Part shown: positions 21,292-36,809 of the stretch, piece by piece
Position numbering within the stretch: the stretch's first letter is position 1
How the letters are laid out: each line of letters begins with the position of its first letter
Source: Gemmatimonadota bacterium
GTDB lineage: Bacteria > Gemmatimonadota > Gemmatimonadetes > Gemmatimonadales > GWC2-71-9
DNA: 64,000 nucleotides
Direction: 5' to 3'
NCBI GenBank assembly: GCA_039587475.1
Contig: JBDHIK010000300.1
Location: forward strand, 39,450 to 103,449
Program-made: the position numbers and the translations under genes
The notes under the pieces: generated by a model
Seen by the model: the letters and a program-made list of their open reading frames with translations, nothing else
The model's database searches: none
What the model was told of the DNA's origin: nothing

Positions 21292-21780
21292 ATGAGCACC
21301 ATCACGCTGACGACATCACACGGCGACATCCTCATCGAATTGCATGCCAACGAGGCCCCGGTCACGGTGGAGAACTTCCTGGCCTACGTCGACGCGGGTC
21401 ACTTCGACGGCACCATCTTCCATCGGGTCATCCCCGGCTTCATGGTCCAGGGTGGCGGGTTCGAGGCCAACATGAACCAGAAGGCGACGCGCGACCCCAT
21501 CAAGAACGAGGCGGACAACGGGCTCAAGAACAAGCGAGGAACGTTGTCGATGGCCCGGACATCGGACGTCAACAGTGCCACCAGCCAGTTCTTCATCAAC
21601 CTCACGGACAACGTGTTCCTGGATCATGGATCCAGGGACTTCGGCTATGCCGTGTTCGCCAGTGTGGTGGACGGGATGGACGTGGTGGACGCCATCGCGG
21701 GCGTCGCCACGGGGAACCACGGTGGGCATTCAGACGTCCCGGTCGAACCGGTGAGAATCGAGAAGGCCGTCAGGGCCTGA
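21292..21780 (+). CDS. ppiB: peptidyl-prolyl cis-trans isomerase, cyclophilin type
   Basis: ATG at 21292; [14 protein letters not shown]...GTLSMAR...SQFFIN cyclophilin signatures; the 130 codons upstream in ORF 20902..21780 overlap the nitroreductase gene in another frame. Confidence 0.9.
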
Positions 21781-23284
21781 GGTCGGTCTCGCCGAATACC
21801 TGCTGCATGATGCGTCTGGCCTGGGGGGGCATCCCGGTGATTTCCACCTCCAGGCCCGCCAGCCGAGCCTCGTTGCTTACCGTCTTCATCGCCAACGCGC
21901 CGGTATAATCGATTCGTCCCAGGCTCGACATGTCGAGGAGCAGCCTGCTGGCGTTTGGGTGGGCCGCCAGTTGGTTCAGAAGCGCCTCTTCCAGGCCGGG
22001 CGCGGAGGCGAAGAACAGGACCCCCATCGGCTCCAGGCGAAGGGTCCCATTCTCCGCGCTGGAGCGGACATCGACGTGCAGCTCGCGCCATACGTGAACC
22101 ATGGTGGCGGCGCCGATCCCCAGAATCACCGCATACTCCACGTGGGGCGCCAGCCACAGGGTGGCGATGGCCGTGGTCCACGCGACGAAAGCCTGCGGCC
22201 GTGATTTCGCCACCAGGCGAACCATGCGCGGGATGGCGATCAGCTGAAGGACCGCGGCGATGACGATGGCCCCGAGGATGGCGCGGGGTAGCGGGGCCAG
22301 GATGCCGGCGAACGGAAGAAACAGCAGCAACGTCAGGCCGGTGATTGCTCCGGCCCACTGAGAACGCGCGCCCGCCAGCCGGCTCACCGATGTCCGGGAG
22401 AACGATCCGCCAACCGGAAAGCCACCCGACAACCCCGAGGCCAGGTTGGCGACCCCCTGTGAGACGAACTCCCGGCTGGGATTCCAACGCTCGCGATCCT
22501 GGGCTGCAAAGGTCCGTGCGATCGCTGCCGGTTCGGCGAAGCCGACCAGCGCGATGATGGCCGCCGGGATGAGGAGGCCGCCGACGGCGGTCCAGGGAAC
22601 GTCGAGCGAGATCGGCGGCAGGCCCGCGGGCAAGCTGCCGACCACCGTGCCGCCGTACCCGGTGATCACGCTGTATCCCATGCCAAGGAGTACCGCCACG
22701 AGCACGCCGGGAAACAGACGGTGCAGCCGCCGGCCTCCCAGAATGGCCAGGACCGTGAACGCCGCCAGCGCGACGGCCGTCGGCTCCCACTCCCCCGGGT
22801 GGGCCAGCGCCCAGACGGCTCGACCGAGGAGCGTCCCGTCCGGCGGTTGGGCGCCGAGCGCGGTGGGGAGTTGCGAGGAGATGATGAGAATCGCGGCGGC
22901 GGTGGTGAAGCCGACGAGTACCGGTTCCGACATGAGGTACGACAGCCAGCCCGCCTTCATGAAGCCCAGGGCCACCCGGATGACTCCGACCAGTATGGCC
23001 AACAGGGCGGCCAGGGCGACATACTCGGAACTGAGCGGGGCGGCCATCGTTCCCAGGGCCCCGAAGGTCAGCAAACTGGTAATGGCGACCGGACCTGTTT
23101 GCAGGTACCGGGAGGAGGCGACGGCCGCGGCGATCAGGGCAGGAAGGGCAGCAGCATACAGCCCGTGCTGGGCCGGCATGCCCGCCAGGTCGGCATAGGC
23201 CACCGCCTGGGGAATCAGGACGGCGGCGACGCTCAGGCCTGCGACGAGGTCCCCGGCTGTGATGCGCACCCACGGTCTCCGCAT
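21770..23284 (-). CDS. SulP family inorganic anion transporter with C-terminal STAS domain
   Basis: 504 aa; N-terminal SulP signature ...[31 protein letters not shown]...; C-terminal STAS (...[20 protein letters not shown]...). Confidence 0.9.
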
Positions 23285-24769: not shown

Positions 24770-25324
24770 TTAGTACAAGCTTTCCTCGACCTTGTCCCGT
24801 ACCTCGTTTTCGATGGACCCCGGCATCCGCATGTTGGCGGCGAATTTCATCTTGCCGGCGTCTTCGAAGTACATCTTCATGCGGAACATGCTGTCGACCA
24901 TGTAGATGGTGATCTCCTCTCCCGTGCGCGTCAGAAGAATCGCGAAGGGGAAGGCTGCGGCGTGGTCGAGACCGGGGCACGTCAGATCGGAGCGCGAGTC
25001 GTCGTTGCCCGCCCCCACGATGGCAAAGGCGCGGCTCTCGATCGGCGCGCCGGTGATCCCGATGAGGGCGACGTTGCGATCTGCGTAGTCGAGCAGGAAG
25101 ACAGGCCGCGTCTCCCACTTGCGATCTCCGCCCTTGGCTGTGAGGGCTTCATAGAGGGCGGTGGCCACCTCCAGCAGGCCGTTGTCGCCTTGAAGCTTCA
25201 CCGAGGCGATCTTCTCGATCTTGTCTTCGAACGGACCACCGGCCACGACACCCATCGTCTTGCTGATGAGACCCCGATCACGCATCTGGCCGTACTGGCG
25301 GTTGGCGAGATGATCCTTGAACAC
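24770..25324 (-). CDS. hypothetical protein (cytoplasmic, no signal peptide)
   Basis: 184-aa ORF with coding-like composition and GC3 bias; no recognisable motif. Confidence 0.45.
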   Translation of the reverse strand: MFKDHLANRQYGQMRDRGLISKTMGVVAGGPFEDKIEKIASVKLQGDNGLLEVATALYEALTAKGGDRKWETRPVFLLDYADRNVALIGITGAPIESRAFAIVGAGNDDSRSDLTCPGLDHAAAFPFAILLTRTGEEITIYMVDSMFRMKMYFEDAGKMKFAANMRMPGSIENEVRDKVEESLY

Positions 25325-25497: not shown

Positions 25498-26541
25498 ATG
25501 GTTCTGGCGACTGCGGTCGCGCTCATGGCTGCGGTGACGTTTGCCGCGCCAACCGTTGCCGCGGCCCAGGGTCAGGCAGGCGCTCACCAGTGGCGATTCC
25601 AATCCCGGGCCCACGTCGACCTGTGGTTCCATGGGCTGGCCGTCGTCGGCTACGAGGGGTTTGGTCTCCTGCCGCTCTACGACCCGGGGTACGCCGATGC
25701 CGTGCGCTCCCTGAAGGAGACCCGCGGCGTCGCACCAACCCCGCTGGACGTCGCCGCTCCCCGGCTCCTGGAGGCGTTCGACCGGGACAGTCTTTTCGAA
25801 GTGCTACACTTCGTCCCTCTCTACTTCGAACATGGGACCGTCGAAAGCGTCCTTGGCGCACTTGACGCCGTGGCCCTGGGGCAGGAGCCTCAGGCGCTCG
25901 GCGCGGAGATCGTCGTGGCCGTGATCACGGGAGATGCACGCCGGCAGGTGTTGGGAGAATTCGTGGCGGCCCTACGTGCCGAGTGGAGCCTGTTCTTCGA
26001 GGCCGTGTGGCAGGAGCAGACGGATGCCCGTCAGGTGCGACTCGAGGAGGCGCAACGGTTCTGGGGCGCTGTGCTGGAGCCGTCGCTGGCACCGTTCCTT
26101 GCGCGACGTGGGCTGGGTGGTGGCGCAGTGTACGCATCCGCCGCTCTCGGTGCGGAAGGCCGGGTCTTCGCCGGTGCGCCGGGCAATCAACTGGACAATC
26201 GGGCGGCGGGAGCCCTTCCGCCGCCTCCGGTGAGTGACGATGTCATGGCGTTCGCGCTGGTTCGGGAGGTGTGCTTTCCGCTCGTGAGCCAGGTGGTGGC
26301 TCGCTCCCGCGCCGGCCACTGGGATCGCGTCGTGGCGGAACGGATGAGCAGCATCGGCGCGGTGCGTTGCGGCGCCGCCTTGCTGGATCGCCATGTCCCC
26401 GACCAGGCCACGCCGTATCGCATGGCGTTCCTGCGGGCCGCGGATGTACCGGAGGCCTCGCCCGAGGATTTTGCTGCGGTCTTCCCGTTGGACCCGAGTG
26501 TCGAGCAGGGAATCGAAGACGCGCTCGATCTCGATGCCTGA
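25498..26541 (+). CDS. hypothetical secreted protein
   Basis: Start at MVLATAVALMAAVTFAAPTVAAAQ signal peptide within ORF 25471..26541; no recognisable domain. Confidence 0.5.
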   Translation: MVLATAVALMAAVTFAAPTVAAAQGQAGAHQWRFQSRAHVDLWFHGLAVVGYEGFGLLPLYDPGYADAVRSLKETRGVAPTPLDVAAPRLLEAFDRDSLFEVLHFVPLYFEHGTVESVLGALDAVALGQEPQALGAEIVVAVITGDARRQVLGEFVAALRAEWSLFFEAVWQEQTDARQVRLEEAQRFWGAVLEPSLAPFLARRGLGGGAVYASAALGAEGRVFAGAPGNQLDNRAAGALPPPPVSDDVMAFALVREVCFPLVSQVVARSRAGHWDRVVAERMSSIGAVRCGAALLDRHVPDQATPYRMAFLRAADVPEASPEDFAAVFPLDPSVEQGIEDALDLDA

Positions 26542-26621
26542 CGCGGGCGGCCGTGCCGGAAGGCCGGGTGCGGCCCCGGTGAACTCGAGCGCCGTGCTTT
26601 GTGAGGAGGGTGCATAACACC

Positions 26622-28148
26622 GTGACGGAGTCCACTGCCTCTACCGTCGCCCAATGGGCCAAGGCCATCGACCACACGCGGTGTATCGGGTGTCACGCAT
26701 GCAGCACCGCCTGCAAGTCCGAGAACGACGTCCCGCTCTCCGTGAACCGTACCTATGTGAAGTACGTCGATGTCGGCGCCTTTCCCCAGGCGCGGCGGGC
26801 CTTCCAGGTCACTCGCTGCAATCAATGCGCCGACCCTCCCTGTGTGGCGGCCTGTCCCACCGCGGCGATGTATCAGCGGGACGACGGGATCGTCGATTTT
26901 GACAAGGCGGCCTGTATTGGATGCAAGGCCTGCATCGCCGCGTGCCCCTACGACGCCATCTTCATCAATCCGGACGACCATTCCGCCGAGAAGTGCAACT
27001 TCTGCGCTCATCGCATCGACATGGGATTGGAACCGGCTTGTGTCGTGGTGTGCCCGACCCAGGCCATCGTGGTCGGCGATCTCCAGGATCCCACGGCACG
27101 GGTTACCCAGTTGGCCCAACGTGAAGCCGTCGCCGTCCGCAGGCCTGAAAAGGAGACCCGGCCCAAGCTGTTCTACCTCGGCGCCCATCACGCCACGCTC
27201 GACCCCATCGCGGCCACCCGTCCGGACGGCGGTCTCTTCATGTGGAGTGAGCAGGCCACCGGACCGCATTCGGTCGTGTCCGGCCACCCGGGGGCGACGA
27301 CCAGTTCCGCTGCTGCGATCTTGTCTTACGACGTGCCGCACAAGGCGCCGTGGGACTGGCGTGTCAGTCTGTACACCTGGACCAAGGGCATCGCCGCGGG
27401 AGCCTACCTGGTCCCACTGCTGCTCGTGGTGCTCGGCGTGCTGGATCCTGCCAGTGCCTTGTGGCACTATGGCGCGCCGGTCATGGGCGGCGCCTTCCTG
27501 GGGTTGACCGGCCTGCTCCTCATCTGGGATCTGGAACACCCCGGCCGCTTCTGGTACATCTTCGCCCGCCCCCAGCTACGGAGTTGGCTCGTTCGTGGCG
27601 GATTCATCATCGGGGGCTACTCGGTTGTGCTTGCCGGGCACTTTGCCGCGGTCCTGGCAGGTGTCGATGGTGCGCTCATGTGGCTGGCCTTCGCAGGCGT
27701 GCCACTGGCAGCTCTCACCGCGATCTATACGGCCTACCTGTTTGCCCAGGCCAAGGGACGGGACTTGTGGCAGAACCCGCTCCTGCCCCCTCAGTTGCTG
27801 GTGCAGACCATCCTGGTCGGGGCCGCGGCGTTCTTGCCCCTGGCGGCTGTATGGGAACCATCCGTCGCGCCGGTGTTGCTCCGTCTCGTGGCCGGTGGCG
27901 CCAGTCTGTATCTCCTGCTGGTCCTGGGCGAGATGACGTTGGCTCACCCGACCGCGCATGCCAAGCTGGCCGCCTGGGAGATGACCTCCGGGCGTTACCG
28001 TCACTATTTCTGGGCCGGGATGGTGCTGCTTGCGGCGGCCGTCACCGCCCCCTGGCTCGGGATCACCGCCGCGCCACTGGCTCTGGCCGGGGTCCTGGCG
28101 CACGAGCACGCCTACGTGCAGGCGGGGCAAGCCGTCCCGCTGGCATGA
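26622..28148 (+). CDS. fusion protein: 4x[4Fe-4S] ferredoxin subunit (PsrB/TtrB/SoeB-like) fused to NrfD/PsrC-type 8-TM quinone-interacting membrane anchor
   Basis: Four Cys clusters (CIGCHACSTAC, CNQCADPPCVAACP, CIGCKACIAACP, CNFC...CVVVCP); C-terminal ~265 aa with ~8 TM helices; SD GAGGAGGG at 26603-26610 then GTG 26622 (ORF-track start is 26601); no Tat/Sec signal. Confidence 0.85.
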   Translation: MTESTASTVAQWAKAIDHTRCIGCHACSTACKSENDVPLSVNRTYVKYVDVGAFPQARRAFQVTRCNQCADPPCVAACPTAAMYQRDDGIVDFDKAACIGCKACIAACPYDAIFINPDDHSAEKCNFCAHRIDMGLEPACVVVCPTQAIVVGDLQDPTARVTQLAQREAVAVRRPEKETRPKLFYLGAHHATLDPIAATRPDGGLFMWSEQATGPHSVVSGHPGATTSSAAAILSYDVPHKAPWDWRVSLYTWTKGIAAGAYLVPLLLVVLGVLDPASALWHYGAPVMGGAFLGLTGLLLIWDLEHPGRFWYIFARPQLRSWLVRGGFIIGGYSVVLAGHFAAVLAGVDGALMWLAFAGVPLAALTAIYTAYLFAQAKGRDLWQNPLLPPQLLVQTILVGAAAFLPLAAVWEPSVAPVLLRLVAGGASLYLLLVLGEMTLAHPTAHAKLAAWEMTSGRYRHYFWAGMVLLAAAVTAPWLGITAAPLALAGVLAHEHAYVQAGQAVPLA

Positions 28149-28158
28149 GGAAACGACC

Positions 28159-31080
28159 ATGACGTCGAACGAACTGAACGAGCGGGTCACCGCTGCCCGG
28201 GACCAGGTAGAACGACGAGGGGAGACGTTCTACCCGGGTCCCAGCCGGATCCACCTCGCCGCGTTCCCGCCAAAGGAGCGCTGGGATGATTGGGTCGAGC
28301 TGGACTCGAAGGCATGGCCCGAGGCCAGCGAGCGGCGTTATACCCTGATCCCCACGACCTGCTTCAACTGCGAGTCCGCGTGCGGCCTGCTGGCGTACGT
28401 AGACCGCGACACGCTCGGGGTTCGGAAGTTCGAGGGGAATCCGGAGCATCCCGGGTCCCGGGGGCGCAATTGTGCCAAGGGACCGGCGACCCTGAACCAG
28501 ATTACCGATCCCGACCGTATCCTGGCGCCGCTCAAGCGCGCCGGGGCTCGCGGGGAAGGCCGGTGGGTCGAAGTGGGATGGGATGAAGCCCTGGACGACA
28601 TCGCGGGCCGCATCCGGAAGGCCATCCAGGAGAAGCGTCACAACGAGATCATGTATCACGTGGGGCGCCCTGGCGAGGACGGCTACACCGAACGCATCAT
28701 GGCGGCCTGGGGTGTGGACGGGCACAACTCGCACACCAACGTGTGTTCCTCCAACGCAAGAGCCGGCTACCAGTACTGGAGTGGTATCGACCGTCCCAGT
28801 CCGGATTTCGCCAACGCCCGGGTGATCCTGTTGGTGTCGGCGCACCTCGAGACCGGCCACTACTTCAACCCCCATGCCCAGCGCATCATGGAGGGGAAAC
28901 AGGACGGCGCCAAACTGGTGGTGTTCGATACCCGGCTGTCCAACACCGCCACCCACGCCGACCACTGGGTATCGCCCCATCCCGGGTCGGAGGCCGCGGT
29001 CTTTCTTGCCATCGCCAACGACCTGATTCAGCACGACCGCTACGACCGGGATTTCGTCCGTCGCTGGTGGAACTGGTCCGAGTACCTCGAGGCGGAATAC
29101 CCGGACCGGGCGGCGACGTTCGAGACGTTCGAGGAGGTTCTCAAGGAACTCTACGCCGATTACACCTTCGCGTTCGCGGCGCAGGAGTCCGGCGTGGACG
29201 AAGAGACGCTGAGAGACATCTCCCGACTGGTCGCGTCCGCGGGGACCCGGCTGGCCACGCATAACTGGCGCAGTGCCGCGGCCGGCAACGAAGGTGGATG
29301 GCAGGTCAGCCGCACGCTCTTTCTGCTGAATGCGTTGCTGGGAGCCATCGCCACCGAGGGCGGCACCACTCCCAACGCCTGGAACAAGTTCGTTCCCAAG
29401 CCCATTCACCTGCCGCCACACCCCAATGTCTGGAATCCGTTGACTTGGCCGGGAGAGTATCCACTGGCCATGAACGAGTTGTCCTTCCTGCTGCCGCATT
29501 TTCTGAAGGAGGGTCGCGGCCGACTGGATGTCTATTTCACACGCGTCTACAACCCGGTCTGGACCAATCCGGATGGGTTTTCGTGGATCGAGGTTCTGTC
29601 GGACGAGTCCCTCATCGGGATGCACGTCGCACTGACGCCCACCTGGAACGAGTCGGCCTACTTCGCCGACTACGTCCTTCCCATGGGGCACAGTTCCGAG
29701 CGGCACGACCTGACCTCCTACGAGACGGCCAACGGCCAGTGGATCGGCTTTCGCCAGCCGGTCCTGCGTGCCATGCGTGAGCGGCTCGGACAGCCCGTGT
29801 CGGATACCCGCGAAACCAACCCGGGCCAGGTCTGGGAGGAAAACGAGTTCTGGATCGACCTCACCTGGCGCATCGACCCCGACGGGTCATTGGGAATCCG
29901 CCAGTATGTGGAATCGAGATCCGCACCCGGAACGAAACTCGGCGTCGACGAATACTATGGCTATGCCTTCGAGCACTCGGTCCCGGGGCTGCCGGAGCGA
30001 GCCCAGGCCGAAGGCCTGACACCCCTCGAGTACATGCGGCGCTACGGTGCGTTCAGTGTCACGGCCAACGTGGATCCACCATACGAACGCGCGGTCCCCA
30101 CCGAGGAACTGGAGGACCCCGCAGAGTCAGCCCATGGGAGGGTCTTCACCCGGGCTCACAAGCCGCCCAATCCCAACATTGCCCCGCAGGCCGCGCCAGA
30201 GGGAGATGCCGAGGGCCGGCGCCCGGTCGGCGTCAATGTGGACGGGACGGTCCTGCGCGGCTTCCCCACTCCCAGCGGACGGCTGGAGTTCTACTCTACC
30301 ACGCTCGCCCAATGGGGCTGGCCCGAGTTTGCGCTTCCGACGTACATCAAGAGCCATGTCCACCCCGACCGGTTGGCCGACGACCAGGTCGTCCTGATTT
30401 CGACGTTCCGCCTGCCGGTGCACATCCACACCCGGAGTGCCAACGCCAAGTGGCTCACGGAAATCGCCCACACCAATCCCCTGTGGCTGCACCCGGACGA
30501 CGCGGGACCGCTCGGTGTCGGGACGGGCGATCTGATGCGTGTCGAGACGGAGATCGGCCATTTCGTCGTCAAGGCCTGGGTGACGGACGGCATCCGCCCC
30601 GGGGTGGTGGCCTGCAGCCATCACATGGGCCGCTGGAAACTCTCGGCGGAAGCCCATGGGACCATCACCGCCACGGCCGACCTGAATCATCAGGGGCACG
30701 ATTGGCGCCTGCGCCGCTCCAGCGGATCCACCAGGCCCGGCGCCGGAAGCGCAGAGGCCGCCCGGATCTGGTGGACCGACGTCGGTGTCCATCAAAACCT
30801 GACGTTCCCCGTGCATCCCGACCCGGTGACCGGACAACACTGTTGGCACCAGGCGGTGCGTGTTCGCAGGGCCCTTCCCAGCGATTGCCACGGCGACGTC
30901 TCGGTCGATAGCGCCAAGGCCGGGGCCGTTTACCGTGCCTGGCTGCAGAGGACCCGGTCGGCGCAAGAGCACTCTCCGGACGGGACCCGGAGACCGTTCT
31001 GGCTCATCCGCCCGCTCAAGCCTCCCAAGGAGGTGTTCCGGCTACCGGGGACCCCGGCTACCCGGGCAGGCTCGGAATAG
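28159..31080 (+). CDS. molybdopterin (bis-MGD) oxidoreductase catalytic subunit, DMSO-reductase superfamily (Psr/Ttr/Soe-like), no Tat signal
   Basis: ATG 28159 after GAGGAA; N-terminal FeS motif CFNCESACGLLAYVD...x26...CAKG; MopB core; C-terminal molybdopterin-dinucleotide-binding domain (...GDLMRVETEIGHFVVKAWVTDGIRPGVVACSHHMG); N-terminus MTSNELNERVTAARDQVERRGETFYPG lacks an RRxFLK Tat motif; extra ~150 aa C-terminal tail. Confidence 0.9.
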   Translation: MTSNELNERVTAARDQVERRGETFYPGPSRIHLAAFPPKERWDDWVELDSKAWPEASERRYTLIPTTCFNCESACGLLAYVDRDTLGVRKFEGNPEHPGSRGRNCAKGPATLNQITDPDRILAPLKRAGARGEGRWVEVGWDEALDDIAGRIRKAIQEKRHNEIMYHVGRPGEDGYTERIMAAWGVDGHNSHTNVCSSNARAGYQYWSGIDRPSPDFANARVILLVSAHLETGHYFNPHAQRIMEGKQDGAKLVVFDTRLSNTATHADHWVSPHPGSEAAVFLAIANDLIQHDRYDRDFVRRWWNWSEYLEAEYPDRAATFETFEEVLKELYADYTFAFAAQESGVDEETLRDISRLVASAGTRLATHNWRSAAAGNEGGWQVSRTLFLLNALLGAIATEGGTTPNAWNKFVPKPIHLPPHPNVWNPLTWPGEYPLAMNELSFLLPHFLKEGRGRLDVYFTRVYNPVWTNPDGFSWIEVLSDESLIGMHVALTPTWNESAYFADYVLPMGHSSERHDLTSYETANGQWIGFRQPVLRAMRERLGQPVSDTRETNPGQVWEENEFWIDLTWRIDPDGSLGIRQYVESRSAPGTKLGVDEYYGYAFEHSVPGLPERAQAEGLTPLEYMRRYGAFSVTANVDPPYERAVPTEELEDPAESAHGRVFTRAHKPPNPNIAPQAAPEGDAEGRRPVGVNVDGTVLRGFPTPSGRLEFYSTTLAQWGWPEFALPTYIKSHVHPDRLADDQVVLISTFRLPVHIHTRSANAKWLTEIAHTNPLWLHPDDAGPLGVGTGDLMRVETEIGHFVVKAWVTDGIRPGVVACSHHMGRWKLSAEAHGTITATADLNHQGHDWRLRRSSGSTRPGAGSAEAARIWWTDVGVHQNLTFPVHPDPVTGQHCWHQAVRVRRALPSDCHGDVSVDSAKAGAVYRAWLQRTRSAQEHSPDGTRRPFWLIRPLKPPKEVFRLPGTPATRAGSE

Positions 31081-31083
31081 TCG

Positions 31084-31941
31084 ATGGAGTTGTTCAGGGC
31101 CCTGGGCGCCCTGGCCGAGCGGCCTGATGCCGCGACGACCAGGCTGGCGGAAATCCTCGGCCTCGATCGGGCGCCGACGGCGGAGGAACACACGGCCCTG
31201 TTCCACCTGGAACTGTCCCCGTATGCCTCGGTCTATCTCAATCCCGAAGGCATGCTTGGTGGGGAAGCGCGCGACCGCGTGGCCGGCTTCTGGCGCGCGG
31301 TGGGCCAGGATCCGCCGGGGGAGACGGATCATGTCGCGGTCCTCATGGCCACCTATGCCAGCCTGGCGGACCTGGAGCAGGCAGAGCAGCAGGAGCGCCA
31401 ACAGGCCGCCTTCAGCCGCATGCGATCCGCGTTTCTGTGGGAACACCTCCTCAGTTGGCTTCCGCCGTTTCTCGATGCCGTTCAGGCCGTCGGCCCCGCA
31501 CCGTACCGCCAATGGGGCCGGCTGGTGGATGAGGCCCTCGAGACCGAGGCCCGTCGCACCACGCCTCCGGATAGTCTCTCCATGCACCTGAAACAGCACC
31601 TGCCTCTCGCCTCGTCTGATGAGGATACCGACGCGTTGCTGGCCGGTCTTCTGGCTCCGGTTCGGAGCGGTCTCGTGCTGACGGGCTCGGATCTGGTTCG
31701 GGCCGCGCGGGACACCGGGCTGGCTCGCCGGGCCGGCGAGCGCCGGTTCGTCCTGCGAGCCTTCCTGGAGCAGGATCCGTCGCGTGTCTGGCCCTGGTTG
31801 GCGGAGGAGGCGAACCGGTGGGCCATCCGGCACGAGGCTCGGCGGCCCTGGTTGGCCTCGATCGCAGCGGAGTGGGCCGCCCGCGCCCGCGCCACCGCCC
31901 GGTTGTTGAGCAGCCTCAGCCCATCTGGCGCCGGCCGCTGA
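31084..31941 (+). CDS. TorD/DmsD/NarJ-family molybdoenzyme maturation chaperone
   Basis: ...HLELSPYASVYLNPEGMLGGEA... and GETDHVAVLMATYASLADLE resemble the TorD-family E(P)xDH region; directly follows the catalytic subunit gene (3-nt gap). Confidence 0.65.
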   Translation: MELFRALGALAERPDAATTRLAEILGLDRAPTAEEHTALFHLELSPYASVYLNPEGMLGGEARDRVAGFWRAVGQDPPGETDHVAVLMATYASLADLEQAEQQERQQAAFSRMRSAFLWEHLLSWLPPFLDAVQAVGPAPYRQWGRLVDEALETEARRTTPPDSLSMHLKQHLPLASSDEDTDALLAGLLAPVRSGLVLTGSDLVRAARDTGLARRAGERRFVLRAFLEQDPSRVWPWLAEEANRWAIRHEARRPWLASIAAEWAARARATARLLSSLSPSGAGR

Positions 31942-31951
31942 TTTCTCCAGA

Positions 31952-32146
31952 TTGGGAGGTAGAGACGTGGCCTTGCAGATGAAGTCGCAGTGTGAGCAGT
32001 GCGGAACGGCCCTGGGCCTCCACGAAGCGGCAGCCATGTGCAGCTACGAATGCACGTTCTGCCCTGTGTGTGCCAAGGACATGTCGTTCGTCTGTCCCAA
32101 TTGTGGGGGGGAATTGGTTGCGAGGCCCCGGCGTACCAGTCCCTGA
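31952..32146 (+). CDS. DUF1272 zinc-ribbon protein
   Basis: CEQCG...CSYECTFCPVCAKDMSFVCPNCGGELVARPRR matches the DUF1272 CxxC x4 pattern; TTG at 31952 or ATG at 31979. Confidence 0.7.
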   Translation: MGGRDVALQMKSQCEQCGTALGLHEAAAMCSYECTFCPVCAKDMSFVCPNCGGELVARPRRTSP

Positions 32147-32185: not shown

Positions 32186-33034
32186 GTGTGCCGCATGCGG
32201 GTTGTTTGTTCTGCGCTCACGCTATTGATGACCATCGGCGGCACGCTCGAGGCGCAGATTCCGTTCGATCCCTGTGTGGACAGGGAGGCGCAACCCATCC
32301 GGGGGGTGGTCGACAATACCCTCCCGTATGCCGGCGCGGCCACGGTCGCTCTCGATGGCGAGCCCGTCATCGTGTACAACAAGTCCAGCCTCAGCAGATC
32401 GTCACCGCAGGTGCGCCGGTTCATCTATCTCCACGAGTGCGGCCATCACGCGCTTCGCCACGTGTGGAAGGACGCCTCACGTCTCCGCGAGATGGAGGCC
32501 GACTGTTGGGCCATCCAGCACATGGTCGAGCAGGGGCTCGTCGAGGAGCGCAAGGTCGATGAGTTGCAGGCCGAGATCGGCGTCGCGCGTGGCATCGGAA
32601 GCCTCAAAGGCTGTATCGACGTCAAGACCGATGAGGAGTTATGGCGCCGCCGTCTGGACCTGCTTTCTCTGGCAGGCACCCATGCGTTCGATGCCATCCG
32701 GGGTGATCCCATCATCGAGGACCCCGAGCCCGGCTATTTCGAATCGACGCTCGATCTGCCTGGCATTTTCAATTGCGAGTTGACTCCCAAGGACACCTTC
32801 ACGTGTGTCATCTTCGACGGCCGAGACGAAGGTTCGGCCATCGGCCACTTCGGCACCGTGCGTTCCGTCATCGAGACCTGGTTGACGGACGACTGGCTCA
32901 CGTTCGAGCGGACGCGGGCCCGGCCGACCGAGTTGCGGCGTTTCGTGGCCCAGGCCATCGAGTCCGGTGCCCTGCTGACGCTGGTGATCACCAGCGAGTA
33001 CGATATCCGCTTCGAGTACCAGCCGGTCCCCTAG
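32186..33034 (+). CDS. secreted putative zinc metallopeptidase-like protein (HExxH motif)
   Basis: Signal peptide (MRVVCSALTLLMTIGGTLEAQ); FIYLHECGHHALRH HExxH motif followed by EMEADCWAIQ; no confident family match (ImmA/IrrE-like at best). Confidence 0.5.
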   Translation: MCRMRVVCSALTLLMTIGGTLEAQIPFDPCVDREAQPIRGVVDNTLPYAGAATVALDGEPVIVYNKSSLSRSSPQVRRFIYLHECGHHALRHVWKDASRLREMEADCWAIQHMVEQGLVEERKVDELQAEIGVARGIGSLKGCIDVKTDEELWRRRLDLLSLAGTHAFDAIRGDPIIEDPEPGYFESTLDLPGIFNCELTPKDTFTCVIFDGRDEGSAIGHFGTVRSVIETWLTDDWLTFERTRARPTELRRFVAQAIESGALLTLVITSEYDIRFEYQPVP

Positions 33035-35591: not shown

Positions 35592-36302
35592 TCAGGGGTT
35601 GGTGGGGCGAATATCCAGCTCGCTCACCGTCGCCCGGGACGGCATGGACAAGAGATCCAACACGACGCGCGCCACGTCGTCCGGTTGGAGGATGCGCTCG
35701 AGATCCGGTTGCATCACGTCCTGATTCCTGATCAACGGGGTATCGACCGACCCCGGGCACACCGCCACGACCCGAATGCCGTCCCCGCGAGCCTCCAGCA
35801 TCAGCGCCCTGCTGAACCCGAGGACGCCGTGCTTTGACGCGCAATAGGCCGTTCCGCCCACGAAACCATTGCGGCCGGCGAGGCTGGCGATATTGATGAT
35901 CGTGCCGTGACTACGCCGCCGCATGCCAGGGAGGACCGCTCTGGTGACGAGGAACGTGCCTCTGAGATTGGTGGACATGGTGGCATCCCAATCGTCGACC
36001 GACAGGTCTTCGAGTGGGCCCATGCGCGCGATACCGGCATTGTTGACGAGGACTTCGATTGGCCCCAGGGTGCTTTGGACGGTATCCACGACAGCGGCCA
36101 CGTCCGCTTCCTGCCCAACGTCGGCTGCGCCTCCGGCCGCATCGATCCCTTGCGCCTCGAGCTCCGTCAACAACAACTCGACCGTGGCCTCATGACGGGC
36201 GCACACCCCTATCCGGTAGCCTTTGCGTCCCAGGAGGAACGCCACGGCCCGGCCGATTCCTTCCGTGGCCCCAGTGACGAATGCAGTGGATGGTCCAGAC
36301 AT
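35592..36302 (-). CDS. SDR family short-chain dehydrogenase/reductase
   Basis: TGATEGIGRA Rossmann motif, NNAG, catalytic S...YCASK triad. Confidence 0.9.
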   Translation of the reverse strand: MSGPSTAFVTGATEGIGRAVAFLLGRKGYRIGVCARHEATVELLLTELEAQGIDAAGGAADVGQEADVAAVVDTVQSTLGPIEVLVNNAGIARMGPLEDLSVDDWDATMSTNLRGTFLVTRAVLPGMRRRSHGTIINIASLAGRNGFVGGTAYCASKHGVLGFSRALMLEARGDGIRVVAVCPGSVDTPLIRNQDVMQPDLERILQPDDVARVVLDLLSMPSRATVSELDIRPTNP

Positions 36303-36312
36303 GGGCTGAAAG

Positions 36313-36651
36313 CTAATAGCGGAGGTCCGGAGGGTGAACGGGACCCCGCTCCCGGGGCACGGTCTGGCGCCGGAGATAGAAGGCGATCCGGTACGCCAGC
36401 TTGCGCACGACGAGCACCTCTCCCGGATCCAGCCAGCCCTGATCCTCGGCGACCATGGCCAGGCGGTGGAGCGCCTGGATGCGGTGCCGGGAGGCGGCGG
36501 GCCGTTCGGCGTGGAGGGCGTTCTGCACCGATCGCAGCGCCCGTGCCAGGCCGTGGGTGGGGCGGCGGGCCAGGCGCGTGGCCAAGCGGTCCAGTTCGCC
36601 CGTCAGGGCTTCCACGTAGGCGTGAAGCGCCTCCTCGCAACCCAGCCACAT
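36313..36651 (-). CDS. hypothetical protein (weak call)
   Basis: 112-aa C-terminal part of ORF 36313..36933 from MWLGCEEALHAYVEALTGELDRL...; sits in an otherwise 500-nt gap; Arg-rich N-terminal part of the ORF looks non-coding. Confidence 0.25.
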   Translation of the reverse strand: MWLGCEEALHAYVEALTGELDRLATRLARRPTHGLARALRSVQNALHAERPAASRHRIQALHRLAMVAEDQGWLDPGEVLVVRKLAYRIAFYLRRQTVPRERGPVHPPDLRY

Positions 36652-36746
36652 GCCGCCAGCATGTCGTGGCGGGCGCCTGTATCCCGTACCACAACGGCGC
36701 CGCCGGGTCCGAAAACATGGCCTCGCAGAGGGAGGCGGCACGTCAT

Positions 36747-36775
36747 TTGACATCTTCCGCGTCTGCCTCCAAGAT
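36747..36775 (+). promoter_or_regulatory. candidate sigma70-type promoter of the EF-G paralog (TTGACA -35, 17-nt spacer, weak CAAGAT -10)
   Basis: Perfect TTGACA at 36747-36752, 35 nt upstream region to ATG 36810; -10 element poor, so low confidence. Confidence 0.25.
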
Positions 36776-36809
36776 CCAGATCTCAACATCTGAAGGAGGT
36801 GGGACCGCG

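What the first reader, a model, noticed from the sequence alone, without database searches (positions are those of the whole stretch)
26601..32146. Predicted cytoplasm-facing SoeABC/Ttr/Psr-like molybdoenzyme locus, gene order (B-C fusion)-A-chaperone-Zn ribbon
Four tightly spaced co-directional genes: a 4x[4Fe-4S] subunit fused to an NrfD/PsrC-type anchor, a ~970-aa bis-MGD catalytic subunit, a TorD-family chaperone and a DUF1272 zinc ribbon. The FeS and catalytic subunits both lack Tat motifs, whereas Psr/Phs/Ttr enzymes are Tat-exported and periplasm-facing. The only established cytoplasm-facing NrfD-anchored member is sulfite dehydrogenase SoeABC (three separate genes, order A-B-C). B-before-A order recalls ttrBCA. 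A fused B-C subunit plus cytoplasmic orientation suggests an uncharacterised quinone-linked molybdoenzyme.
Basis: partly seen in the sequence, partly recalled or inferred. Interest (0 to 1): 0.75.

Follow-up and report, generated by a model that had tools for sequence, protein, structure and literature searches.

The report
Cytoplasm-facing fused sulfite-type molybdoenzyme operon
This is a real four-gene operon for a membrane-bound molybdenum enzyme that faces the cell interior and most likely oxidises sulfite to sulfate; it is one more member of a very widespread enzyme group whose odd fused layout was noticed years ago but whose activity has never been measured.

Summary
Four co-directional genes lie 3-10 nt apart: a 4x[4Fe-4S] domain fused to an 8-helix NrfD/PsrC anchor, a 973-aa Mo-bisPGD catalytic subunit, a TorD/NarJ-type chaperone and a DUF1272 zinc ribbon.

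Neither redox protein can carry a Tat signal. The positive-inside rule puts the FeS domain in the cytoplasm, so the module is inverted relative to Psr/Phs/Ttr.

The layout is not unique. All 69 related species genomes with enough upstream sequence have the fusion. Relatives occur in Gemmatimonadota, Acidobacteriota, Chloroflexota, Actinomycetota, Binatia and haloarchaea.

Every Tat-less relative I examined has the fusion. The three unfused B-C-A loci I examined all have a Tat signal.

Neighbours recur: persulfide dioxygenase-rhodanese in 32 of 80 loci, then DsrE, TusA, SulP and TauE/SafE. This points to cytoplasmic sulfite oxidation to sulfate with quinone reduction.

A psrBC fusion with psrBCA order and no Tat signal was already reported for green sulfur bacteria, Marine Group A, Haladaptatus and Caldilinea, with sulfite oxidation proposed. 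I therefore rate this a new member of a known kind that remains biochemically untested.

Orthology to SoeA could not be tested. DUF1272 is lineage-specific.

The parts
26601..28148 (+). Gene for the fused B-C subunit: an N-terminal 4x[4Fe-4S] ferredoxin domain joined to an 8-helix NrfD/PsrC-type quinone-site membrane anchor. 26601 is the longest possible ORF; the probable start is the GTG at 26622.
   Evidence: Pfam Fer4_11 and NrfD. Thermus PsrB matches residues 18-195 at 3.5e-51. The fusion is present in 69 of 69 related loci with upstream room and in all of the 120 best database homologues. Start-site reasoning.
26652..27185 (+). FeS (PsrB-like) domain with 16 Cys forming four [4Fe-4S] binding motifs. 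It has no signal peptide and is predicted to be cytoplasmic.
   Evidence: Cys at residues 28, 31, 34, 38, 73, 76, 81, 85, 105, 108, 111, 115, 132, 135, 147 and 151, all invariant. Alignment to PsrB.
27342..28133 (+). NrfD/PsrC-type membrane domain with 8 predicted helices and both ends in the cytoplasm. Conserved polar residues cluster on the cytoplasmic loops.
   Evidence: Pfam NrfD covers residues 248-511. Family-averaged K/R per loop is 4.1, 3.2, 1.9 and 2.9 on the FeS side, against 0.4, 0.2, 0.2 and 0.0 on the other side. In the AF2 model this domain has mostly high confidence (pLDDT blocks from residue 251: all 65 or higher, most above 80). It matches PsrC (2vpw_C, target-normalised TM 0.73) and ActC of alternative complex III.
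28159..31080 (+). Gene for the catalytic Mo/W-bisPGD subunit (973 aa). It is Tat-less and has a conserved hydrophilic N-terminal tail of 65 residues.
   Evidence: Pfam domains. Closest solved structures are PsrA (2.6e-34) and ArrA. The N-terminal tail is conserved and has no signal-like region in any of the 80 genome-scan loci or the other fused-type loci. A 100% identical protein is in JGI metagenome 3300041024.
28360..28473 (+). FS0 [4Fe-4S] binding motif C68-x2-C71-x3-C75...C105 of the catalytic subunit.
   Evidence: all four Cys invariant.
28744..28746 (+). Codon for Cys196 (TGT), the predicted molybdenum ligand in HTNVCSSNARAG.
   Evidence: Aligns with Cys173 of Thermus PsrA in the HMMER alignment. 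Invariant in 30 homologues. Codon checked. That PsrA Cys173 is the Mo ligand is from my own knowledge (Jormakka et al. 2008).
31084..31941 (+). TorD/NarJ-family redox-enzyme maturation chaperone (285 aa) with an unassigned C-terminal extension of about 150 residues.
   Evidence: Pfam PF02613, 8.9e-16. A homologue is found in 59 of 80 related loci, directly downstream of the catalytic gene in 55.
31952..32146 (+). DUF1272 zinc-ribbon protein (probable start GTG 31967). It is a lineage-specific passenger, not a conserved component.
   Evidence: Pfam PF06906, 3e-22. Present in only 2 of 80 related loci, L006 and L007.
21770..23284 (-). SulP-family anion permease with a STAS domain, divergently oriented 3.3 kb upstream. 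It is a possible sulfate or sulfite transporter partner; the link is weak in this window.
   Evidence: Pfam Sulfate_transp plus STAS. SulP genes lie within 8 kb in 16 of 80 related loci, and directly after the catalytic gene in the eight loci L025, L055, L061, L062, L064, L066, L073 and L075, six of which are labelled Candidatus Binatia.

Best explanation
The locus encodes a two-polypeptide, membrane-bound complex iron-sulfur molybdoenzyme whose whole redox module faces the cytoplasm.

Proposed mechanism:
1. [quoted passage not shown]
2. Two electrons pass through FS0 and the four [4Fe-4S] clusters of the fused FeS domain.
3. [quoted passage not shown]
4. The reaction is therefore electroneutral unless the NrfD domain also moves protons. 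Energy is conserved downstream by the respiratory chain.

Fusing the FeS domain to the N-terminus of the anchor fixes that N-terminus in the cytoplasm. Together with loss of the Tat signal and a reversed loop-charge bias, this inverts the module relative to its Tat-exported B-C-A relatives.

The TorD-like protein probably holds the conserved N-terminal tail of the apo-catalytic subunit during cofactor insertion, as NarJ does for NarG.

The physiological role is probably removal and energy-yielding use of sulfite made inside the cell, by persulfide dioxygenase, sHdr or organosulfonate breakdown. Sulfate would leave through SulP- or TauE-type permeases.

What is shown: domain content, cofactor motifs, absence of an export signal, topology bias, conservation of the fusion and the gene neighbourhoods.

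What is inferred: the substrate, the direction of electron flow, the position of the quinone site and the chaperone's target.
For: Architecture and cofactor motifs:
-.

No export signal:
-. The N-terminal 65 residues are conserved and hydrophilic in all 80 genome-scan loci and in the other fused-type loci.

Topology:
- Family-averaged K/R is 4.1, 3.2, 1.9 and 2.9 in the loops on the FeS side, against 0.4, 0.2, 0.2 and 0.0 on the other side.
- Seven fused proteins have 12-15 K/R on the N-terminal side against 0-5 on the other. Unfused Tat-dependent partners show the reverse: 3-5 against 9-10 in two clear cases, a third after allowing for an extra N-terminal helix, and one ambiguous.

Fusion and Tat loss go together:
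- Seven Tat-less lineages, from 39% to 100% identity, all have the fusion.
- The three unfused B-C-A loci whose context I examined all have an RRxFLK-type signal on the catalytic subunit. Further Tat-bearing representatives in the tree were not checked for gene context.

Membrane fold:
- PsrC and ActC are the best structural matches.

Sulfur context across phyla and domains:
- Persulfide dioxygenase-rhodanese in 32 of 80 loci, DsrE-family in 21, TusA in 19, SulP in 16; at least one of these in 39 of 80.
- Myxococcota relative: sigma-54 regulator, PDO-rhodanese, two YeeE-type transporters, BC, A.
- Rhodococcus RHA1 plasmid pRHL3: DsrE, TusA, BC, A, with three MBL-fold PDO-like genes nearby.
- Halomicrococcus: rhodanese, TauE/SafE sulfite exporter, BC, A, MobA, anion permease.
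- Thermomicrobium roseum: a CsoR/CstR-family regulator directly upstream. This organism also has a strongly induced sHdr sulfur-oxidation cluster (PMC6776052).

Literature:
- SoeABC is the accepted cytoplasm-facing, NrfD-anchored sulfite:quinone oxidoreductase with an inverted anchor (PMC8076601).
- The cytoplasmic fused PSR-like complex of green sulfur bacteria was proposed to oxidise sulfite (PMC3906813).
Against: - No activity data exist for any fused member.
- I could not obtain a genuine SoeA or green sulfur bacterial sequence, so orthology is untested.
- The best 150 cluster representatives (down to about 280 bits) contain no unfused, Tat-less protein of about 950 aa. A KEGG-Orthology-based study reported no SoeABC in samples whose labels match MAGs that carry this enzyme. 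The family may therefore lie outside SoeA proper.
- In this window no persulfide dioxygenase, DsrE or TusA gene occurs within 64 kb; only SulP is nearby.
- 41 of 80 related loci show no sulfur gene within 8 kb.
- The Aquifex relative of SoeABC was first described as a sulfur reductase, so the direction and substrate could differ.
- AF2 did not model the FeS domain (pLDDT below 50), so docking of that domain on the anchor is not shown.
Confidence: 0.55

Rival explanations
1. It is a cytoplasm-facing reductase. Quinol is oxidised at the NrfD site and the Mo centre reduces an intracellular sulfur species: elemental sulfur or polysulfide, persulfide, thiosulfate or tetrathionate.
For: The closest solved and curated relatives are reductases: PsrA, ArrA and PhsA. 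The bacterial Sre/Soe enzyme of Aquifex was first described as a sulfur reductase (PMC10100899; PMC4378227). The rhodanese, DsrE and TusA neighbours handle sulfane sulfur.
Against: The most frequent neighbour is an O2-dependent persulfide dioxygenase, whose product is sulfite (the reaction is from my own knowledge). Anion permeases of the sulfate/sulfite type recur. The carriers appear, from their taxonomic labels, to be mostly aerobic soil and sediment heterotrophs (lifestyle is my inference). Quinol-driven reduction of low-potential sulfur couples is uphill and, with both sites on the cytoplasmic side, would gain nothing.
Confidence: 0.15
2. It oxidises carrier-bound or low-molecular-weight sulfane sulfur rather than free sulfite, for example TusA/DsrE persulfide or thiosulfonate, or thiosulfate. 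It would then be a new Mo-dependent route parallel to sHdr or persulfide dioxygenase.
For: DsrE and TusA sit immediately upstream of BC-A in Rhodococcus and lie within 8 kb in 19-21 of 80 loci. DsrE3A/TusA carry thiosulfonate in Metallosphaera (review PMC8551704).
Against: No DMSO-reductase-family enzyme is known to act on protein-bound persulfide. DsrE and TusA are absent from most loci and from this window. Sulfite-type exporters and persulfide dioxygenase fit free sulfite more simply.
Confidence: 0.12
3. It acts on a non-sulfur oxyanion or other substrate, such as arsenite, selenite, tellurite or an N- or S-oxide. The sulfur neighbours would then reflect shared stress regulation.
For: ArsR/SmtB-family regulators are common nearby (17-25 of 80 loci). 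Copper-type P-type ATPases neighbour two distant relatives. ArrA is the second-best solved relative.
Against: ArsR-family members include persulfide sensors, so they do not discriminate (my own knowledge). No ars, arr or aio genes recur. The persulfide dioxygenase, DsrE, TusA, SulP, TauE and YeeE signal is specific to sulfur and recurs from 46% to 80% identity and in archaea.
Confidence: 0.08
4. It is an ordinary periplasm-facing Psr/Phs/Ttr-type reductase whose Tat signal was missed because of a wrong start codon or a hitchhiking partner.
For: PsrB-type subunits often lack their own signal and hitchhike on the catalytic subunit (my own knowledge). The public gene call for ORF1 is indeed wrong.
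Against: The reading frames leave no room. A stop codon lies 17 codons upstream of the FeS core. The only upstream extension of the catalytic ORF overlaps ORF1 and has no hydrophobic stretch. None of the 80 genome-scan loci nor the other fused-type loci has a signal. The loop-charge bias is the reverse of Tat-dependent relatives. An N-terminal cofactor-loaded FeS domain fused to a polytopic protein has no known export route.
Confidence: 0.02

Closest known systems
Cytoplasmic polysulfide-reductase-like complex with a psrBC fusion (psrBCA operons of green sulfur bacteria, Marine Group A, Marine Group II, Haladaptatus paucihalophilus and Caldilinea aerophila). From my own knowledge it is called PSRLC3 in the green sulfur bacteria literature.
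   Same: The FeS and NrfD-type subunits are fused into one gene. That gene lies upstream of the catalytic gene. The catalytic subunit has no Tat signal and is predicted to be cytoplasmic. A sulfur-cycle role has been proposed, with sulfite oxidation suggested for the green sulfur bacterial complex (PMC3906813). Haloarchaeal (53%) and Chloroflexota (61%) fused loci fall in the same clade as the window protein in my tree.
   Different: I could not compare directly with green sulfur bacterial or Marine Group A sequences, so common ancestry with those particular complexes is inferred and not tested. Here the host is probably a Gemmatimonadota heterotroph. The recurring partner in relatives is persulfide dioxygenase rather than Dsr. 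The operon also carries a TorD-like chaperone and a DUF1272 gene.
SoeABC sulfite:quinone oxidoreductase (Allochromatium vinosum, Aquifex aeolicus, Ruegeria pomeroyi)
   Same: It is a molybdoenzyme anchored by NrfD without haem, with Mo-bisPGD plus FS0 and a 4x[4Fe-4S] subunit. It has no signal peptides, faces the cytoplasm and has an inverted anchor with the quinone site on the N-side (PMC8076601). The catalytic subunit is of similar size, about 109 kDa (my own knowledge). It co-occurs with cytoplasmic sulfite-producing pathways.
   Different: SoeABC has three separate genes in A-B-C order; here there are two genes in BC-A order. No unfused Tat-less protein of about 950 aa appears among the nearest 150 cluster representatives. 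KEGG-Orthology-based annotation apparently does not call these genes soeA. The closest unfused relatives are Tat-dependent. The cytoplasmic orientation may therefore have arisen independently.
Thermus thermophilus polysulfide reductase PsrABC (PDB 2VPW/2VPZ)
   Same: It is the best solved match for all three modules: PsrA 2.6e-34, PsrB 3.5e-51, PsrC by fold with TM 0.73. The Mo-ligand Cys is at the same position and the anchor core has 8 helices.
   Different: PsrABC is Tat-exported and faces the periplasm, has three polypeptides and is a quinol-oxidising reductase. The catalytic subunit is about 200 residues shorter. PsrA His145 corresponds to an invariant Arg170 here.
Uncharacterised Tat-dependent B-C-A-TorD clusters followed by a gene for a 4Fe-4S protein of about 360 aa (Azoarcus sp. 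KH32C pAZKH, Sulfurovum mangrovi plasmid, metagenomic P0246)
   Same: These are the nearest unfused sequence relatives of the catalytic subunit (33-43% identity). They share the B-before-A order, a TorD-family gene and the YPPFE/FPPKE motif after the N-terminal region.
   Different: The B and C genes are separate. The catalytic subunit has a canonical RRxFLK Tat signal. The loop-charge bias of the anchor is the opposite. An extra FeS protein is encoded downstream.

Membership tests
Mo/W-bisPGD (DMSO reductase / MopB) family, complex iron-sulfur molybdoenzyme type | Catalytic subunit with Molybdop_Fe4S4, Molybdopterin and Molydop_binding domains | tested here: met
   Pfam E-values 6.3e-10, 4.7e-21 and 5.2e-17.
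Mo/W-bisPGD (DMSO reductase / MopB) family, complex iron-sulfur molybdoenzyme type | FS0 Cys motif and a protein ligand to Mo at the canonical position | tested here: met
   C68, C71, C75 and C105 are invariant. Cys196 aligns with PsrA Cys173.
Mo/W-bisPGD (DMSO reductase / MopB) family, complex iron-sulfur molybdoenzyme type | Four-cluster ferredoxin subunit and NrfD-type haem-less anchor | tested here: met
   16 invariant Cys in four motifs. Pfam NrfD. Fold match to PsrC and ActC.
SoeABC sulfite dehydrogenase | Catalytic subunit belongs to the SoeA clade | not testable with these tools
   No SoeA reference sequence, model or solved structure was reachable. NCBIfam has no SoeA model, the PDB has none and the AFDB library was unavailable. 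Indirect signs argue against close membership.
SoeABC sulfite dehydrogenase | No signal peptides; redox subunits on the cytoplasmic side; inverted NrfD anchor | tested here: met
SoeABC sulfite dehydrogenase | Three separate subunits encoded in soeA-soeB-soeC order | tested here: not met
   B and C are one ORF and lie upstream of A.
SoeABC sulfite dehydrogenase | Sulfite-dependent quinone reduction | not testable with these tools
   This needs an enzyme assay. Only gene-neighbourhood support is available.
Cytoplasmic psrBC-fusion PSR-like complexes (psrBCA type) | psrB and psrC fused into one gene, located upstream of the catalytic gene | tested here: met
   Definition taken from PMC3906813.
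Cytoplasmic psrBC-fusion PSR-like complexes (psrBCA type) | Catalytic subunit without a Tat signal | tested here: met
Cytoplasmic psrBC-fusion PSR-like complexes (psrBCA type) | Phylogenetic clustering with the green sulfur bacterial and Marine Group A complexes | not tested
The link is indirect, through fused haloarchaeal and Chloroflexota relatives that cluster with the window protein, taxa that the paper lists with the green sulfur bacterial group.
Periplasmic Psr / Phs / Ttr reductases | Twin-arginine signal on the catalytic subunit | tested here: not met
   Absent here and in all 80 genome-scan loci and the other fused-type loci. Present in unfused relatives.
Periplasmic Psr / Phs / Ttr reductases | Score above the curated equivalog cut-off (PhsA, TtrA, TtrB, ArrA, ArrB) | tested here: not met
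   PhsA 202 against 694; TtrA 93 against 1750; TtrB 181 against 416; ArrA 108 against 1600; ArrB 148 against 450.
TorD/NarJ redox-enzyme maturation proteins | PF02613 domain, encoded next to its molybdoenzyme | tested here: met
   58.6 bits against a cut-off of 22.2. Directly downstream in 55 of 80 loci.
DUF1272 | PF06906 zinc-ribbon domain | tested here: met
   78.9 bits against a cut-off of 25.3. It is linked to the operon in only 2 of 80 relatives.

The most novel reading that the evidence does not exclude
This fused family may not be SoeABC in the strict sense. It may be a separate lineage that turned a Tat-exported B-C-A enzyme inside out, by losing the signal peptide, fusing B to the anchor's N-terminus and reversing the loop-charge bias. 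It may be the missing direct sulfite dehydrogenase of the very abundant heterotrophs in soils and sediments that carry persulfide dioxygenase (Gemmatimonadota, Acidobacteriota, Chloroflexota, Actinomycetota, Binatia, haloarchaea). Standard KEGG-Orthology-based sulfur-cycle surveys would currently overlook it.
Probability: 0.4. Interest if true: 0.65.

Novelty: new member of a known kind. Interest (0 to 1): 0.42.

Why it matters
Heterotrophs that oxidise sulfide through sulfide:quinone reductase and persulfide dioxygenase make sulfite inside the cell, yet surveys often find no direct sulfite-oxidising enzyme in them. The Bohai Sea study reported SoeABC as not detected (PMC12345210). MAGs whose names match that study's sample labels carry this fused enzyme, and two of them (L009, L027) have it next to DsrE and persulfide dioxygenase genes.

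If the enzyme is a sulfite:quinone oxidoreductase, three things would follow:
- It would close that pathway gap.
- It would add an energy-yielding step to what is usually treated as detoxification.
- It would change estimates of who oxidises sulfite in soils and sediments.

The clean pairing of fusion with Tat loss, alongside a reversed loop-charge bias in most of the anchors compared, is also a tidy natural example of how a whole respiratory module can be re-oriented in the membrane.

For this particular window the locus is an ordinary member of that family.

Tried and rejected
Attempts to obtain a genuine SoeA or green sulfur bacterial reference sequence for a phylogeny all failed:
- NCBIfam has no SoeA model.
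- The PDB has no SoeABC structure.
- Plasmid tblastn returned only fused relatives, Tat-dependent relatives and PhsA.
- Cluster names were uninformative.
- The supplement of the MopB phylogeny paper holds no sequences.
- The AFDB fold library was unavailable.
- Key papers (Gregersen 2011; Koch and Dahl 2018) are not held.

Hits that turned out to be unrelated enzymes:
- Ralstonia syzygii and Thioclava plasmid hits are smaller, different enzymes.
- Representatives P0269 and P0309 lie on contigs with broken gene calls.
- P0362 and P0335 are soluble enzymes in other contexts.

Analyses that gave little:
- The AF2 model of the fusion gave a good membrane domain but an unusable FeS domain, with pLDDT below 50 from a shallow alignment. 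Docking of the two domains could not be examined.
- phmmer of the NrfD domain against the PDB found nothing. The fold search did find matches.
- Rfam found no RNA element in the window, including no Moco riboswitch.
- Promoter and terminator scans were at chance level.
- Literature searches for DUF1272 and for a fused SoeBC gave nothing relevant, and one search was badly chosen.

Ideas rejected:
- The secreted 347-aa protein just upstream (25498-26541) belongs to the system: it has no homologue in any related locus.
- DUF1272 is a core component: it occurs in only 2 of 80 related loci.

Full report
**What is in the window**

Between 26601 and 32146 the + strand carries four ORFs separated by 10, 3 and 10 nt.

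ORF1 (26601-28148, 515 aa) combines a four-cluster ferredoxin domain with an NrfD domain. Pfam gives Fer4_11 at 1.5e-24 and NrfD at 1.4e-16 over residues 248-511. Thermus PsrB matches residues 18-195 at 3.5e-51. Its 16 cysteines form four cluster motifs and are invariant in 33 homologues.

ORF2, read from the ATG at 28159 (973 aa), has the three domains of a Mo/W-bisPGD catalytic subunit. It has the FS0 motif C68/C71/C75/C105. Cys196, in HTNVCSSNARAG, aligns with Cys173 of Thermus PsrA. That Cys173 is the Mo ligand of PsrA is from my own knowledge.

ORF3 (31084-31941) is a TorD/NarJ-family chaperone and ORF4 (31952-32146) is a DUF1272 zinc ribbon.

The window is identical to a contig of JGI metagenome 3300041024. 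The closest relatives are Gemmatimonadota MAGs at 77-80% identity.

Minor corrections:
- ORF1 most likely starts at the GTG at 26622, behind a GGAGG motif.
- The public gene call at 26742 removes the first FeS cluster.
- DUF1272 probably starts at 31967.

**Orientation**

ORF1 cannot extend more than 17 codons upstream of the PsrB-like core. The only possible upstream extension of ORF2 overlaps ORF1 and is proline- and glycine-rich, with no hydrophobic stretch.

In the 80 related genomic loci and the other fused-type loci, the 65 residues before FS0 are a conserved, hydrophilic tail (consensus ...RVSAAR.E.EARGETFYPGPSRIHLAAFPPKERWDDW...). None has a Tat-like signal.

The membrane domain has eight hydrophobic segments. 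Averaged over 72 family members, the loops on the same side as the FeS domain carry 4.1, 3.2, 1.9 and 2.9 Lys+Arg. The alternate loops carry 0.4, 0.2, 0.2 and 0.0. By the positive-inside rule the FeS domain and both termini of the anchor are therefore cytoplasmic.

An AF2 model gave mostly high confidence for the membrane domain (pLDDT blocks from residue 251: all 65 or higher, most above 80). Its best solved matches are ActC of alternative complex III and PsrC, the latter with a target-normalised TM-score of 0.73. The FeS domain was not modelled (pLDDT below 50).

In canonical enzymes the 8-helix core starts on the periplasmic (positive, P) side of the membrane, where the FeS subunit sits (PMC8076601). 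A cytoplasmic FeS domain fused to that N-terminus therefore implies that the whole module is flipped. The same has been proposed for SoeC.

**How general the layout is**

- The catalytic subunit has thousands of database relatives; the best 120 are 72-81% identical.
- The fused BC protein behaves the same way. All 120 best hits have both Fer4 and NrfD domains and are 468-607 aa long, nearly all about 500-540.
The top 80 come from Gemmatimonadota, Acidobacteriota (Pyrinomonadaceae, Thermoanaerobaculia), Binatia, Chloroflexota, Actinomycetota, Dormibacterota and a gammaproteobacterial MAG, all at 70-80% identity.
- All 69 loci with sequence upstream of the catalytic gene have the fusion.
- 59 of 80 loci have the TorD-like gene, 55 of them directly downstream.
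- Only 2 of 80 loci have DUF1272.

More distant fused members are:
- Thermomicrobium roseum, 61%
- Rhodococcus jostii RHA1 plasmid pRHL3, 57%
- haloarchaeal plasmids, 53%
- a Myxococcota contig, 46%
- two metagenomic lineages, 44% and 39%

.

**Fusion goes with loss of Tat**

In a distance tree of available sequences, every Tat-less relative I examined sits next to a BC fusion. The three unfused relatives whose loci I examined have separate B and C genes in B-C-A order, and their catalytic subunits carry a canonical RRxFLK signal. These are P0246 (43%), P0271 (33%) and Azoarcus KH32C (34%). Several further representatives in the tree also carry Tat signals, but I did not check their gene context.

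The loop-charge bias of the anchors flips accordingly. Fused proteins have 12-15 Lys+Arg on the N-terminal side against 0-5 on the other. Two Tat-dependent partners have 3-5 against 9-10. A third fits after allowing for an extra N-terminal helix, and one is ambiguous.

The fused family thus looks like an inside-out version of a Tat-exported B-C-A enzyme family.

**What it probably does**

No curated family reaches its cut-off, so function has to come from context. Within 8 kb of the 80 related loci I found:

| Neighbour | Loci (of 80) |
|---|---|
| MBL-fold plus rhodanese protein (persulfide dioxygenase-rhodanese fusion) | 32 |
| DsrE-family protein | 21 |
| TusA | 19 |
| ArsR-type regulator | 17-25 |
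| SulP permease | 16 |
| at least one sulfur gene | 39 |

In eight loci (L025, L055, L061, L062, L064, L066, L073, L075; six labelled Candidatus Binatia) the SulP gene lies directly after the catalytic gene.

The same theme recurs in distant members:
- Myxococcota: sigma-54 regulator, PDO-rhodanese, two YeeE-type transporters, BC, A.
- Rhodococcus: DsrE, TusA, BC, A, Mrp, with three PDO-like genes around.
- Halomicrococcus: rhodanese, TauE/SafE sulfite exporter, BC, A, MobA, anion permease.
- T. roseum: a CsoR/CstR-family regulator directly upstream. This organism also induces an sHdr sulfur-oxidation cluster in stationary phase (PMC6776052).

Persulfide dioxygenase and sHdr release sulfite in the cytoplasm (my own knowledge). 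A cytoplasm-facing, quinone-linked molybdoenzyme next to them, often with a sulfate/sulfite-type permease, is most simply a sulfite:quinone oxidoreductase, working like SoeABC.

Electron flow would be Mo, FS0, the four clusters, then quinone at the cytoplasmic end of helices 1-4. Invariant polar residues (D310, R316, S328, Y340, H347, R387, D388, E444, H449, H453, E502, H503) cluster in that region.

The position of PsrA His145 is an invariant Arg170 here, which would suit an oxyanion. This last point is speculative.

In this window itself the only sulfur-related neighbour is a divergent SulP gene at 21770-23284. No persulfide dioxygenase, DsrE or TusA gene occurs anywhere in the 64 kb.

**Relation to what is known**

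However, a psrBC gene fusion, psrBCA order and a Tat-less catalytic subunit were described earlier. They were reported in green sulfur bacteria (Frigaard and Bryant 2008, cited there) and then in a Marine Group A fosmid, Marine Group II fosmids, Haladaptatus paucihalophilus and Caldilinea aerophila. Gregersen et al. 2011 proposed that the cytoplasmic complex of green sulfur bacteria oxidises sulfite (Wright et al. 2014, PMC3906813).

My fused haloarchaeal and Chloroflexota relatives fall in the same clade as the window protein, so the window enzyme very probably belongs to that already-noticed group.

Whether the group is SoeA in the strict sense could not be tested, because no SoeA sequence was reachable. 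Indirect signs suggest it is distinct:
- The 150 nearest cluster representatives, down to about 280 bits, include no unfused Tat-less protein of about 950 aa.
- The MopB survey describes bSreA/SoeA as a separate, low-diversity radiation (PMC10100899).
- The Bohai Sea study used IMG KEGG-Orthology assignments and reported SoeABC as not detected (PMC12345210). Yet MAGs named after its samples (BHB10-26, M8-58, M8-62, M3-44) carry this enzyme, and two of them (L009, L027) have it next to DsrE and persulfide dioxygenase genes. That these MAGs come from that study is my inference from the names.

**Verdict**

The enzyme is biochemically uncharacterised, but neither rare nor unnoticed. It is a new member of a known, previously described kind.

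Sulfite oxidation is the best-supported function, and I put my confidence in it at about 0.55. It rests on neighbourhoods in relatives, not on this window.

The parts that seem new in this analysis are:
- the breadth of the family in soil and sediment heterotrophs;
- its link to persulfide dioxygenase;
- the strict pairing of fusion with Tat loss, with reversed anchor charge bias in most of the anchors compared;
- the likelihood that routine annotation misses it.

Noticed in passing
window 26601-26742: The public (JGI) gene call for the fused FeS-NrfD protein starts at 26742 (468 aa). This deletes the first CxxCxxCxxxC cluster motif, which is conserved with PsrB. The real start is upstream, probably the GTG at 26622 behind a GGAGG motif.
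   Followed up: yes
L011-L021, L024, L026, L028-L032, L036, L042 (Pyrinomonadaceae and other Acidobacteriota loci), between the BC gene and the catalytic gene: In many acidobacterial relatives the BC and catalytic genes are 0.2-2.4 kb apart instead of about 10 nt. In 9 loci the gap holds a gene for a DUF1905 plus YdeI/OmdA protein of about 170 aa. For three of them (L011-L013) the tblastn match spans about 3.6-3.7 kb instead of 2.9 kb.
   Followed up: partly
L004 4263-12154, L005 4853-11140, L092 2169-8720: The nearest unfused relatives form their own uncharacterised, Tat-dependent cluster type: B, C, A, TorD-like, then a 4Fe-4S protein of about 360 aa plus small hypothetical genes. They occur in Azoarcus sp. 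KH32C, Sulfurovum mangrovi and a metagenome contig.
   Followed up: partly
L003 8799-9968; L093 9945-11105; L092 857-1732: In Rhodococcus and Natrinema an Mrp/NBP35-type ATPase follows the catalytic gene where the TorD-like gene sits elsewhere. A ParA/CbiA-like ATPase also lies upstream of the unfused P0246 cluster. It may be a dedicated FeS-cluster delivery factor.
   Followed up: no
window 25498-26541 (+) and 24770-25324 (-): These are two genes with no Pfam match. The first encodes a 347-aa protein with a signal-peptide-like N-terminus, ending 60 nt before the operon. Neither has a homologue in any of the related loci.
   Followed up: partly
window 32186-33034 (+): The gene after DUF1272 has only a weak Peptidase_U49 hit on record in the JGI annotation. 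It is conserved, together with DUF1272, in the two closest Gemmatimonadota loci (L006, L007), so this tail of the cluster is local synteny.
   Followed up: partly
window 35907-38861 (+): The longest ORF is 984 aa, but only the C-terminal 680 or so residues are EF-G/GTPase domains. The public call is 683 aa, so the N-terminal 300 codons are probably not translated.
   Followed up: no
window 31084-31941: The TorD-like protein is 285 aa, but the PF02613 match covers only residues 16-130. The C-terminal 150 or so residues have no family assignment.
   Followed up: no
L009, L022, L027, L031, L057: These Gemmatimonadota MAG contigs have names that match sample labels of the Bohai Sea sediment study, which reported SoeABC as not detected. 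L009 and L027 carry DsrE and persulfide dioxygenase genes right next to the fused enzyme.
   Followed up: partly
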